This document shows positions 1-3,000 of a stretch of DNA of 15,767 nucleotides, one piece after another (position 1 is the first letter of the stretch; each line of letters starts with the position of its first letter). Origin of the DNA: a virus. Its lineage: Duplodnaviria > Heunggongvirae > Uroviricota > Caudoviricetes. Made by a program: the position numbers. The stretch lies in the IMG/VR virus record IMGVR_UViG_2700989171_000012; one strand, given 5' to 3'.

Positions 1-3000
1 ATGAGCAGAGCACTTAACAAACTGAGCGATACACAGCTGAGGAAAATCAACGGCACACCCGCCCAAAAAACAGCCTTTCTTAATGACGGTGGAAACCTGA
101 GCGTCAGGCATTCAACCAGTGGCCTTTTAACCTGGTATTTCACTTACAGGGCCGGAACGGGAAGGGGGGCACCACCGGAACGCATTAAGCTGGGAAATTA
201 TCCTGATCTGAGCCTGAAATCAGCCAGGGAAAAAGCCGCCCAGTGTCGCGCATGGCTGGCAGAGGGGAAAAATCCACGTCATGAGCTTAATTACACCGTA
301 CAGGAAGCGTTAAAGCCGGTAACGGTTGGCGATGCGCTCACCTACTGGCTTGAGTCGTACGCAAAGGAAAACCGCGTGGATTATGCCGCCCTGAAAAAGC
401 GCCTTAATAATCACGTAATACAGCACATTGGTGCTATGCCGCTGGATAAATGCGAGCTACGGCACTGGCTGGCCTGTTTTGACCAGGTGGCAAAGCGAAC
501 GCCTGTTACTGCCGGATTCTTGCTACAGACGTGCAAACAGGCGCTTAAGTTCTGCCGGAGGCGGCGCTATGCAATCAGCAACGTTCTTGATGATATGAGT
601 GTGGCGGACGTTGGGAAAAAACCGGATATAAGCGAGCGTGTCTTAAGCACCAAAGAACTGGGCGAATTATTGCAGGCACTGGACAAAAAAATATTCTCCC
701 CCTACTACATCGCGTTAATCCGCCTCCTGATTGTGTTCGGATGCCGGACGGTAGAACTGAGGTTATCGGAGATCAGCGAGTGGGATTTTACCGAAATGCT
801 CTGGACCGTGCCGAAAGAACACAGCAAAACGAAGGTGGCAATATTCCGGCCCATACCGGAAGCAATACTGCCGTTCGTCACGCAGCTGGTGGAGCAGAAC
901 AGGCACACGGGCTTATTGCTGGGGGAAGTGAAACAGGAAACAAGCGTGTCGCAGTACGGCAGATTAGCGCACAGGAGGCTAAATCACCCTCACTGGTCAC
1001 TACATGACATCCGGCGCACCTTTACAACGATGCTGAACGATTTAGGCGTGGATCCTCACGTCGTGGAGCAGCTTACAGGCCACCAGATGCCAGGAATGCA
1101 GCGAGTTTATAATCATTCCCGTTATCTGGATGCTAAACGCAATGCGCTGGATATGTGGACGGAGCGGTTAGGGATACTGGCGGGAACACATGAAAACGTA
1201 ACCACGCTACCAGTAGCCAGAAGAAAATAATTTTTTTCGTGTTTTTTCAGTATGCGCATACTGGATATGCGAACAGATACAACGTGCAACAATGAGCAAC
1301 AATGCGGAACAACTACGAACAAGAGGTGAAAAAGTGTACAGATTTATAAGTAGCTGATTTTTAATGTGTTACTGATTTTTTATACACTAGCGAATCACTC
1401 TTTAAATAGCGAGAAAAAAGGCATGAAACAATATTTTATGCCTTTGTATTAACATGAATTTAAAGGATTTTATCCTGATTATTCCTCTTTCTGTAAACCA
1501 TACGGCCTCAACATTTGCCAACTCTGAATCATCCTGACACAATCAGACACATCCCAACGCAATAGAACACGAAATAACTCTTTAAGAAACGAAAGGGGGC
1601 AATAGTGTTAAGCACTGATCGGTTTATACGTGAAAAAGAATGCGAAAAGCTAACAGGCCTTAGCCGCTCATGCCGCTACCGCCTGGAAAAGGCCGGACAA
1701 TTCCCATCACGTCGTAAACTTGGCGGTCGTTCCGTTGGCTGGTCTTTATCCGAGGTTCTGGCCTGGAAGGATAGCTGCAAGGCAGTTCATTAATCACGCT
1801 GGCGGCACGCAGCCGCCACACATCAATCATCTGAACACAGAGCTATAACCATGAAGATTGAATATACGCCAGAACGTGGGCGGGGATTCGTTCGCCCTGG
1901 TGAAACTGGAAAACCACAAAATTGGGGTTTTTCAGGCATAAAAAAAGCGGCCCCGAAATGGAGCCGCCTTTCTGAACAGATAACCCGCTGCGCCGTTTGT
2001 GTGTGTGATCCCAAACATAAGCACGGGGATGATAGCCGCTATCAGGCTGGTGGGCAATGCAATCAGTCTGGTTCAGTGCGTTGCCATAACTGCGAAGTTC
2101 TCTCCTTTGATGAGTATTCTTTAAGGTACTTCTCAAGGGCAAAAGAACACGGCGCGAATCGTTCTGATTCATGCTCTTTCTTTCTGCGTCGTCTTTTTCG
2201 TGCAGGTGATGTTTTTTCGGTTGATTCTTCGTTGGTCATTGTGTGCGCCTGTAAAGCAATGCGCCGTAGTACCTCACACCACGGCGCTGATAGTTTTTAT
2301 CCTTTGGGTTCTATGCCGCGTTGCTGTAATTCTTTGCGGATTATTCGCTTTATCCAGGCAGCAAGAGAATCATCGCCGTCCTGTTGTTGTGCCTTTTCCA
2401 TCTTTTCCCGTAAGTCAGGATCTAAACGGAACTGGAACGGAGGATTACCACGCCTTTCGTTTTTGTGTGTTGACACGTTAATTACACCTCAGGTAATGTA
2501 TTTATGTGTAGTGACACATTACACACAATCAACACAAAAAGCAAAGCCCCGCACTGTAGGAGCAGTAACGGGGCTTCTAACCAACAACGTAAACTAGGAG
2601 CCGTTATGGTTGCCGTAAATCATATACCACACCTTGTACACACACAAACGGCCTTTGTGTGGCGTTTTCTGGCACTGAGTGCCGGAGAATCCCAAATCAT
2701 CCACGTAACCGCTTGGACGGAACGCGAAGCGCGTAGCCGTTGCCCGTCCGGTTGTGTTGCTGTATTCGCCGCCCGTATTCGTCAGGGGGAAACCTATGCA
2801 CAATAAAACCACACCGAACGCAGCAGCCGCCGCACTCACTACGCTGATGCACGCGCTTATTGATATTGAATGCACGGCAGAGCTTGCGCAGGGAGAAGAA
2901 CAGAAAGACCGGACACAGTTCGCCCTGGAATGTATCCGATACATCGCAACGCGGTCACTGAATGACGCTAAAAATATTCTTGTTGCCGATTGTGAAAATG

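What the first reader, a model, noticed from the sequence alone, without database searches (positions are those of the whole stretch)
2462..2525. Near-consensus promoter wrapped in direct and inverted repeats at the head of the replication operon
TTGACA, 18-nt spacer, TAATGT. The direct repeats TGTGTTGACAC / TGTAGTGACAC and the inverted repeat GTAATGT...ACATTAC overlap the -35 and -10. That is an operator arrangement for a dimeric regulator (perhaps AlpA or a helper-encoded factor) controlling the small-gene/primase operon. The first gene with a good SD starts about 100 nt downstream, at 2606.
Basis: partly seen in the sequence, partly recalled or inferred. Interest (0 to 1): 0.45.

Follow-up and report, generated by a model that had tools for sequence, protein, structure and literature searches.

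The report
Repressor-controlled switch promoter of a phage satellite
The repeats around this promoter are most likely binding sites for a small, previously overlooked Arc/Mnt-like repressor encoded right next to it on the other strand, forming the on/off switch for the replication genes of an E. coli phage satellite, a kind of element for which no repressor is known.

Summary
TTGACA (2470-2475), an 18-nt spacer and TAATGT (2494-2499) are present, with the direct and inverted repeats as described. The promoter is not near-consensus in this one sequence: its -10 matches 3 of 6.

Its case rests on conservation. It is kept in 44 distinct related loci from Enterobacterales, Orbaceae and Pasteurellaceae.

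Its GTG start overlaps the -35.

The repeats form two 20-bp palindromic units: O1 (2461-2480, over the -35) and O2 (2502-2521, over both predicted start sites).

The inverted repeat GTAATGT/ACATTAC is the -10 hexamers of two face-to-face promoters. The second, P(-) (TTGCTT, 17 nt, TAATGT; 2544 to 2516), would drive the RHH gene.

Six RHH variants each come with a different repeat at the same position. The repeats do not track AlpA.

The 100-nt leader carries a covarying hairpin (2544-2576). It is an intrinsic terminator on the minus strand and probably ends a sar-like antisense RNA over the Icd-like ribosome-binding site.

Best reading: an RHH repressor/operator switch, not an AlpA operator. 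All binding and transcription steps are inferred.

The parts
2297..2476 (-). 59-aa Arc/Mnt-like ribbon-helix-helix (RHH) protein gene with a GTG start at 2476; proposed repressor
   Evidence: phrog_228 'Arc-like repressor' E=2e-6. NF041551 YlcI/YnfO E=5e-4, below its cutoff. 117 homologues and 43 genomic loci. Arg codon switches AGG/CGT/AGA preserve the minus-strand protein (A1). AF2 pLDDT 79 with two helices. The best 5 Foldseek hits and most of the 27 are RHH proteins (NikR, Arc 1par TMt 0.73), but all have E>=0.88. hhalign aligns PPFQFRL to the Mnt strand PHFNFRM, P=9e-4. PGAP annotates the identical ORF in L002.
2261..2287 (-). terminator-like hairpin directly after the RHH stop codon
   Evidence: 12-pair stem with 7 G-C pairs found by the scan. 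Not examined in other loci.
2461..2480 (.). O1: imperfect 20-bp palindromic unit TTTTGTGT-GTTG-ACACGTTA; overlaps the -35 of P(+) and the RHH start codon
   Evidence: TGT (2466-2468) and GACA (2472-2475) are invariant in 24 genera.
2470..2499 (+). P(+): TTGACA, 18 nt, TAATGT; predicted start near 2506; promoter of the Icd-like to primase operon
   Evidence: In 44 distinct sequences: TTGACA 38, spacer 18 in 33 and 17 in 6, -10 always TAnnnT. In YlcI-type relatives the -35 (TTGACG) lies in non-coding DNA and is still kept.
2502..2521 (.). O2: 20-bp palindromic unit TTATGTGT-AGTG-ACACATTA (7 of 8 arm pairs); covers the predicted start sites of both promoters and the -10 of P(-)
   Evidence: TGTGT (2505-2509), ACA (2514-2516) and TTAC (2519-2522) are invariant.
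2516..2544 (-). P(-): TTGCTT (2544 to 2539), 17 nt, TAATGT (2521 to 2516); predicted start near 2509; proposed promoter of the RHH gene, face to face with P(+)
   Evidence: The -10 is TAATGT in 38 of 44 and TAnnnT in all. TTG sits exactly 17 nt upstream in 43 of 44, while the spacer sequence varies freely. No gaps fall in this stretch of A1.
2534..2576 (-). intrinsic terminator on the minus strand: stem 2544-2551/2569-2576, inner stem, then T-tract 2543 to 2534
   Evidence: 8 of 12 pairs show compensatory changes; 0 of 500 shuffles reach the score. Of the non-Watson-Crick cells, 26 are G.U only on the minus strand and 5 only on the plus strand. T count in the 10 nt after the stem is 7.0 on the minus strand and 1.1 on the plus strand. 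Listed by the scan.
2537..2612 (-). putative cis-antisense RNA of about 76 nt covering the SD and AUG of the Icd-like gene; 5' hairpin with the anti-SD in its loop, then the terminator hairpin
   Evidence: MFE -30.5 kcal/mol, z=-4.1. RNAalifold on 25 loci gives a two-hairpin consensus, 9 of 21 pairs compensatory, with G.U pairs that exist only on this strand. The 5' end is inferred only.
2619..2647 (-). candidate antisense promoter TTGTGT, 17 nt, TATGAT, inside the first codons of the Icd-like gene
   Evidence: Rank 14 in my PWM score. A minus-strand TAnnnT lies 10 nt (4 nt in L001 and L017) beyond the start codon in most loci, although the first genes differ. The -35 is weak and not conserved.
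2596..2806 (+). SD AGGAG (2596-2600) and the Icd-like gene (ATG 2606); first gene of the operon that runs to the primase (3767-5515)
   Evidence: NF033153 E=6e-18. Gaps of 1-2 nt in the leader columns of A1 (126, 128, 139-140, 168, 186) show that 2523-2605 is non-coding.
1605..1793 (+). alpA (context only): converges on the RHH gene; not the binder of the repeats
   Evidence: PF05930 E=5e-18. Dissociation from the repeats.

Best explanation
Region 2461-2576 is the divergent control region of a capsid-forming PICI-type phage satellite inserted between roxA and phoQ.

- P(+) (TTGACA, 18 nt, TAATGT) transcribes the Icd-like/DUF4222/primase replication operon.
- A 59-aa Arc/Mnt-like RHH protein is encoded on the other strand.
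- The protein would bind two 20-bp palindromic operators 41 bp apart. O1 lies over the -35 of P(+). O2 lies over both predicted start sites and the -10 of P(-).
- Binding would shut off the replication operon and limit the repressor's own synthesis.
- RNA polymerase at one promoter would exclude polymerase at the other.
- A short leftward antisense RNA, ending at the conserved terminator 2576 to 2534, probably adds a second lock on the ribosome-binding site of the first gene.

Shown here: the sequence elements, their conservation, the strand of the terminator, and the co-variation of repeats with the RHH gene.

Inferred: DNA binding, repression, both start sites, the antisense RNA, and the route of induction.
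For: 1. Conservation. In 44 distinct sequences from three families, P(+) and P(-) keep their hexamers and exact spacer lengths while the spacer sequences drift.

2. Co-variation. Six RHH variants each carry a different repeated palindrome at the same promoter position.
- Type 1 (PPFQFRL): TTATGTGTnnTGACACATTA (window, L002-L043, L049, L050).
- Type 2 (PPYQMRL): GGTAATTACC, two copies (O157:H7 L046, and L047).
- Type 3 (QTVAARV): GTGTTCAACAC, three copies (L001).
- Type 4 (QLTTVRV): GTGTGTTTCA, three copies (L048).
- Type 5 (QYQIRL): TTGTAATTACAA, two copies (L044, L045).
- Type 6 (KQIALRV): CACCTGnC / GnCAGGTG (L051).
- Sources.
- The RHH variants differ in the N-terminal strand region, while the C-terminal helix is nearly identical in types 1, 2, 5 and 6.
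- Mannheimia (L053) keeps the type-1 strand and the type-1 left arm.

3. Dissociation from AlpA in both directions.

4. RHH assignment. phrog_228 E=2e-6. The best-scoring fold hits are RHH proteins. hhalign places the strand in register with Mnt and Arc.

5. The operator pattern occurs only here in the window.

6. Terminator strand and covariation.
Against: - No experiment. No start site, footprint or reporter data exist for this region in the papers I could search.
- The fold-search E-values (>=0.88) and hhalign probabilities (12-23%) are weak. NF041551 is below its cutoff.
- The exact half-site is unresolved. A 'GTAAT box' parse (2482-2486, 2493-2497, 2518-2522) is also possible. Types 1 and 2 share the predicted base-contacting residues P/Q/R yet have different repeats, so specificity must also lie elsewhere, for example in the N-terminal arm.
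- Conservation of O1 is confounded by the RHH start codons and the -35. Conservation of the right arm of O2 is confounded by the -10 of P(-).
- AlpA overexpression alone induces a related element (10.1101/2025.02.11.637232). A repressor model must accommodate that.
- The RHH ribosome-binding site is poor: GAGG, 10 nt, then GTG.
Confidence: 0.6

Rival explanations
1. One reading: the repeats are operators for AlpA, or for a helper-phage factor, which switches the operon on.
For: AlpA is required for induction of Gram-negative PICIs and activates transcription of its own promoter and of downstream genes in EcCICFT073 (PMC6092414). alpA lies about 700 nt upstream in the same orientation.
Against: Elements with the same or a 98% identical AlpA have four different repeat sets, and an element with an unrelated AlpA has the window's repeats. 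In loci L003-L043 the AlpA identity is 35-54% or alpA is absent from the locus, while the repeats are kept. A helper factor is untestable here, but it would have to co-vary with the RHH cassette.
Confidence: 0.07
2. No dedicated operator exists. The repeats are by-products of two overlapping face-to-face promoters plus the RHH start codons. Regulation is by promoter competition and antisense RNA only.
For: The inverted repeat equals the two -10 hexamers. O1 overlaps the -35 and coding sequence. The O2 palindrome alone is not significant.
Against: TGTGT at 2505-2509 is invariant and lies outside every hexamer. Five other RHH types have their own repeated palindromes (two or three copies) at the same positions, with different sequences, while the -35 stays TTGAC(A/G).
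Confidence: 0.12
3. The RHH protein binds the repeats but only autoregulates its own accessory gene (antitoxin-like or cargo). The replication operon is controlled elsewhere, for example by read-through from the alpA promoter.
For: RHH proteins are common autoregulated antitoxins. JGI labels some homologues 'HicB family'. A 58-aa gene follows in the window. No plus-strand terminator-like site was found between alpA and the operon.
Against: The 58-aa partner occurs only in the window and its close E. coli/Shigella relatives (L003, L002); the RHH gene stands alone in the other loci. The operators cover P(+) as much as P(-). The cassette always sits between alpA and the replication operon.
Confidence: 0.12
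4. The region is coding. The long plus-strand ORF 1851-2597, fused to Icd-like in some relatives, is a real gene translated across the promoter, as eta is in P4.
For: Open plus-strand frames of 200-600 codons span the region in about 60% of loci. PGAP calls them Icd-like pseudogenes. P4 has a precedent, described in PMC10111431.
Against: No family hit. The frame shares wobble positions with the RHH gene, so it is a typical shadow ORF. Its translation is less conserved (53-71%) than the RHH protein (73-93%). It is broken in about 15 loci. 1-2-nt indels occur in the leader.
Confidence: 0.03

Closest known systems
Phage P22 immunity I region (mnt, Omnt/Pant, arc, sar RNA, ant)
   Same: A small RHH maintenance repressor is encoded divergently from the promoter it controls. 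Palindromic operators of about 20 bp overlap the promoters. A short cis-antisense RNA ending at its own terminator covers the ribosome-binding site of a downstream gene. The P22 components are as summarised in PMC2629481; the details of the Pant/Pmnt geometry are from my memory. hhalign aligns the DNA-reading strand with Mnt and Arc.
   Different: The sequence relation is only marginal. Rfam finds no sar match. The controlled operon encodes Icd-like, DUF4222 and primase replication genes of a satellite, not an antirepressor. No second Arc-type RHH was seen in the operon. The specificity cassettes are swapped between otherwise similar elements.
SaPI/PICI master repressor Stl (Rpr) of Gram-positive PICIs
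   Same: A divergently transcribed repressor sits between the integration module and the replication module of a satellite (PMC6092414).
   Different: Stl is a large helix-turn-helix protein relieved by helper proteins. Here the protein is a 59-aa RHH, and nothing is known about its relief. [quoted passage not shown]
P4 CI RNA / P1 C4 RNA immunity (c4-icd-ant)
   Same: RNA-based control in the leader just upstream of an Icd-type gene. Some Gram-negative PICIs do carry C4/isrK-type RNAs (PMC10111431).
   Different: There is no C4 or isrK match even at E<=10 on the 261-nt region. The RNA here would be encoded on the opposite strand (cis-antisense), not processed from the same transcript.
AlpA (PF05930) control of Gram-negative PICIs
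   Same: Same element class, and alpA is present upstream.
   Different: The repeats do not track AlpA. The Pseudomonas 'AlpA' antiterminator, which has a binding element between -35 and -10, is a different, larger Q-like protein (PMC9371919).

Membership tests
sigma-70 promoter | -35 and -10 hexamers at 16-18 nt spacing | tested here: met
   TTGACA, 18 nt, TAATGT. The -10 matches 3 of 6 but keeps T-12, A-11 and T-7. Rank 8 in the window.
sigma-70 promoter | elements and spacing conserved in relatives while flanks drift | tested here: met
   44 distinct sequences; alignment A1.
sigma-70 promoter | a transcript starts 6-8 nt after the -10 | not testable with these tools
   Needs 5'-RACE or dRNA-seq.
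Arc/Mnt/MetJ ribbon-helix-helix repressors | strand-helix-helix fold of about 45 residues | tested here: inconclusive
   The AF2 monomer shows two helices (20-33, 38-52) with the N-terminus unstructured. The best-scoring Foldseek hits are RHH proteins, but all have E>=0.88.
Arc/Mnt/MetJ ribbon-helix-helix repressors | sequence match to a family profile | tested here: inconclusive
   phrog_228 E=2e-6. NF041551 scores 20 bits against a cutoff of 30. No Pfam hit. hhalign to Mnt P=9e-4, probability 23%.
Arc/Mnt/MetJ ribbon-helix-helix repressors | repeated or palindromic operators of about 20 bp overlapping the regulated promoter | tested here: met
   O1 and O2.
Arc/Mnt/MetJ ribbon-helix-helix repressors | operator sequence changes when the protein's DNA-reading region changes | tested here: met
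   Six protein types, six repeat types.
Arc/Mnt/MetJ ribbon-helix-helix repressors | specific DNA binding and repression | not testable with these tools
   Needs EMSA, footprinting or reporter assays.
P22 immI-type module | cis-antisense RNA with its own terminator over a downstream ribosome-binding site | tested here: inconclusive
   The terminator strand and structure are well supported. The promoter is only a conserved TAnnnT.
P22 immI-type module | homology to sar RNA, and an antirepressor as target | tested here: not met
   No Rfam sar hit. The target gene is Icd-like.
AlpA operator | binding sites co-vary with the AlpA protein | tested here: not met
   AlpA accessions.
P4 CI / P1 C4 immunity RNA | match to Rfam C4 or isrK | tested here: not met
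type II toxin-antitoxin (RHH antitoxin) | conserved co-transcribed toxin partner | tested here: not met
   The 58-aa neighbour occurs only in the window and its close E. coli/Shigella relatives (L003, L002).
capsid-forming PICI (the element as a whole) | int, alpA, primase, plus capsid, protease, portal, head-tail connector and terminase genes but no tail genes | tested here: met
   Annotation of the 96% identical L001 between roxA and phoQ; Pfam, NCBIfam and PHROG hits.
capsid-forming PICI (the element as a whole) | induction and transfer by a helper phage | not testable with these tools
   Experimental.

The most novel reading that the evidence does not exclude
This small RHH protein is the missing master repressor of Gram-negative (capsid-forming) PICIs, the functional counterpart of Stl. 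It would hold the replication operon off through O1 and O2. It would come in exchangeable immunity types that let several satellites coexist in one cell. It would be backed by a sar-like antisense RNA. Helper induction would work by removing it or by over-running it with AlpA-driven convergent transcription.
Probability: 0.3. Interest if true: 0.7.

Novelty: new variant of a known kind. Interest (0 to 1): 0.5.

Why it matters
- For Gram-negative PICIs the only known regulator is the activator AlpA. [quoted passage not shown]
- A conserved repressor/operator cassette between alpA and the replication genes gives a concrete, testable answer to how these satellites stay silent. It may also explain how related satellites avoid cross-talk.
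- Sequence similar to 2240-2810 occurs in 1562 of 5426 complete E. coli genomes.
- In the three loci checked (O157:H7 L046, L047, L001), PGAP annotates the plus-strand shadow ORF as an Icd-like pseudogene. In L046 and L047 it leaves the RHH gene unannotated.

Tried and rejected
- Rfam on the whole window and, with lax filters, on 2440-2700: nothing relevant.
- Pfam on the small proteins: no hit for the RHH protein.
- Profile search of A2 against PDB sequences: only a chance NsrR hit.
- The third, inverted copy of the repeat (2529-2546, I1/I2): not conserved. It is the terminator T-tract plus ACAC.
- The D2 repeat (hairpin loop resembling the Icd ribosome-binding site): specific to the window, not conserved.
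- An in-frame upstream ATG at 2504 for the Icd-like gene: rejected because of 1-2-nt gaps in the leader columns of A1.
- The long plus-strand ORF as a real gene: rejected.
- A toxin-antitoxin pair with the 58-aa gene: rejected.
- The Pseudomonas AlpA antiterminator analogy: a different protein family.
- Literature searches for YlcI/YnfO function, for an Icd-like antisense RNA and for RHH repressors in satellites: nothing found.
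Full report
**Context.** The window is a phage satellite of the capsid-forming PICI type, inserted between roxA and phoQ of E. coli. A 96% identical copy (L001) is annotated with integrase, AlpA-type regulator, small genes, DUF4222, primase, SSB, PerC, capsid, protease, portal, head-closure and connector proteins, HNH, both terminase subunits, and then phoQ. In the window, int is 1-1230, alpA is 1605-1793 (PF05930, E=5e-18), the Icd-like gene is 2606-2806 (NF033153, E=6e-18), DUF4222 is 3471-3770 and the primase is 3767-5515.

**The observation.**
- TTGACA is at 2470-2475, the spacer is 18 nt and TAATGT is at 2494-2499.
- The direct repeats extend to 21 nt (2460-2480 and 2501-2521, 17 of 21 identical, 41 nt apart).
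- The inverted repeat GTAATGT/ACATTAC is at 2493-2499 and 2516-2522.
- AGGAG followed by ATG at 2606 opens the first gene.
- The direct repeat is unlikely by chance: 2 of 1000 shuffles reach it. The 20-bp pattern occurs nowhere else in the window, against 0.03 expected.
- As a promoter the site is ordinary on its face. The -10 matches 3 of 6, the consensus scan does not list it, and it ranks 8th in the window in my own score.

The TTGACA overlaps the GTG start (2476) of a 59-aa gene on the minus strand (2297-2476).
- PGAP annotates this same ORF in the near-identical L002.
- It matches the PHROG 'Arc-like repressor' family (E=2e-6) and, weakly, YlcI/YnfO.
- It has 117 homologues. It occurs in 43 genomic loci from Escherichia/Shigella to Xenorhabdus, Gilliamella and Frischella, and in Mannheimia.
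- An AlphaFold model has two confident helices after a flexible N-terminus. Its best Foldseek hits are RHH proteins (NikR N-domain; Arc 1par with TMt 0.73), but with non-significant E-values.
- hhalign puts PPFQFRL in register with the DNA-reading strands of Mnt (PHFNFRM) and Arc (PQFNLRW), at P=9e-4 and 2.5e-3. I supplied the Arc and Mnt sequences from memory.
- A 248-aa plus-strand ORF (1851-2597) overlaps this gene and the whole control region. It is a shadow frame. Its wobble positions coincide with those of the RHH gene. Arg codon switches preserve only the minus-strand protein. It has no family hit. It is less conserved than the RHH protein and is broken in many loci.

**Comparative anatomy.** The evidence comes from alignment A1 (24 genera) and a tally over 44 distinct sequences.
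- P(+) is kept. TTGACA is present in 38. The spacer is 18 nt in 33 and 17 nt in 6. The -10 is TAATGT or TAGTGT, always TAnnnT.
It is identical in 38 of 44 and TAnnnT in all.
- Exactly 17 nt upstream of it lies TTG (2544 to 2542) in 43 of 44. The 17 nt in between vary freely.
- That pattern is the signature of a promoter, P(-), for the RHH gene.
- The predicted starts are near 2506 (+) and 2509 (-). The two promoters are therefore face to face and mutually exclusive.
- The most conserved non-coding block is O2, TTATGTGT-AGTG-ACACATTA (2502-2521). It lies over both starts. O1 (2461-2480) is its imperfect copy over the -35.

**Who binds the repeats?** I compared relatives with diverged RHH genes.
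- The architecture is constant: a TTGAC(A/G) -35, repeats in or next to the spacer and just after the -10, and the same leader.
- The repeats change with the protein.
  - PPFQFRL goes with TTATGTGTnnTGACACATTA.
  - PPYQMRL goes with GGTAATTACC, two copies (O157:H7).
  - QTVAARV goes with GTGTTCAACAC, three copies.
  - QLTTVRV goes with GTGTGTTTCA, three copies.
  - QYQIRL goes with TTGTAATTACAA, two copies.
  - KQIALRV goes with CACCTGnC/GnCAGGTG.
- In types 1, 2, 5 and 6 the proteins differ mainly in the N-terminal strand region and share an almost identical C-terminal helix.
- AlpA is the same or 98% identical in the window, L001, L046 and L048, which have four different repeat sets. It is unrelated in L002, which has the window's repeats.
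- The repeats are therefore most simply operators of the RHH protein, not of AlpA.
- Caveat: types 1 and 2 share the predicted base-contacting residues, and the exact half-site is not settled. A GTAAT-box parse is possible.

**The leader.**
- The hairpin at 2544-2576 is conserved by structure. Eight of 12 pairs show compensatory changes and 0 of 500 shuffles reach the score.
- It belongs to the minus strand. Of the non-Watson-Crick cells, 26 are G.U only on that strand and 5 only on the plus strand. It is followed by a T-run only on that strand (7.0 versus 1.1 T in 10 nt).
- It is therefore an intrinsic terminator for a leftward RNA. The one invariant G in its T-tract is the G of the P(-) -35.
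- A minus-strand TAnnnT sits 10 nt (4 nt in L001 and L017) beyond the start codon in most loci, although the first genes differ. In the window it is TATGAT (2624 to 2619), with TTGTGT 17 nt upstream.
- The predicted RNA of about 76 nt (2612 to 2537) folds into a 5' hairpin that presents the anti-Shine-Dalgarno sequence in its loop, followed by the terminator (z=-4.1).
- RNAalifold on 25 loci of four operator types recovers both hairpins, with 9 compensatory pairs.
- No Rfam family matches.
- The antisense promoter is the weakest link in this part of the model.

**Mechanism proposed.** The RHH protein, probably as a dimer of dimers on each 20-bp unit, occupies O2 and O1. It blocks P(+) and throttles P(-). 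The antisense RNA masks the Icd-like ribosome-binding site of any escaping transcripts. How the helper phage or AlpA lifts this block is unknown. alpA converges on the RHH gene in the window and in all 22 other loci where it was found, and in L051. No plus-strand terminator-like site lies between alpA and the operon. Read-through from the alpA promoter is therefore a possibility, but this is inference only.

**Comparison and novelty.** The closest known system is the P22 immunity I region, which has Mnt and Arc RHH repressors and the sar antisense RNA (PMC2629481). This module works like it but is not a member. There is no sar homology, no antirepressor target and only marginal protein similarity. 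In the PICI papers I could search, Gram-negative elements are described as regulated by the activator AlpA, with the existence of a repressor 'unclear' (PMC6092414). The cf-PICI papers mention no repressor or promoter here. One comparative study notes C4/isrK-type immunity RNAs in some PICIs (PMC10111431), which this element lacks. I rate it a new variant of a known kind.

Noticed in passing
window 5520-5760: At least 12 copies of the iteron (A/G)GGTAGA(T/C)A, in both orientations, lie directly after the primase gene. This is probably the satellite's replication origin. It also explains the spurious mir-135 hit at 5602-5683.
   Followed up: partly
window 1851-2597 (+); L046 2115-3059; L001 2342-2789; L047 1193-1708: A long plus-strand shadow ORF lies antisense to the RHH gene. 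PGAP annotates its relatives as 'Icd-like' pseudogenes. In the O157:H7 locus L046 and in L047 this leaves the 57-aa RHH gene unannotated; in L001 the YlcI/YnfO-type RHH gene is still annotated.
   Followed up: yes
window 2063-2239 (-): A 58-aa gene of unknown function (phrog_21027). It occurs only in the window and its close E. coli/Shigella relatives (L003, L002) and is not linked to the RHH gene in other genera.
   Followed up: partly
window 2261-2287 (-): A strong terminator-like hairpin (12 pairs) lies directly after the RHH stop codon. It suggests that the RHH gene is monocistronic.
   Followed up: no
window about 1275-1330: A run of (G/C)AACAA repeats at roughly 10-nt intervals lies just after the int stop codon. 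They could be arm-type or excisionase (AlpA) binding sites (sequence printed).
   Followed up: no
window 2557-2571 and 2595-2609: The hairpin loop repeats the Icd ribosome-binding site (TAGGAGCAGTAACGG and TAGGAGCCGTTATGG). The repeat is not conserved in other loci, so it is probably recent or due to chance.
   Followed up: partly
window 10353-10435 and 11230-11280: Two runs of N (masked sequence) lie inside the head/packaging module.
   Followed up: no
L025, L032, L033 (Citrobacter): The RHH gene and O1/O2 are kept, but the downstream leader and operon are replaced by unrelated sequence. These look like remnants or recombinants of the cassette.
   Followed up: no
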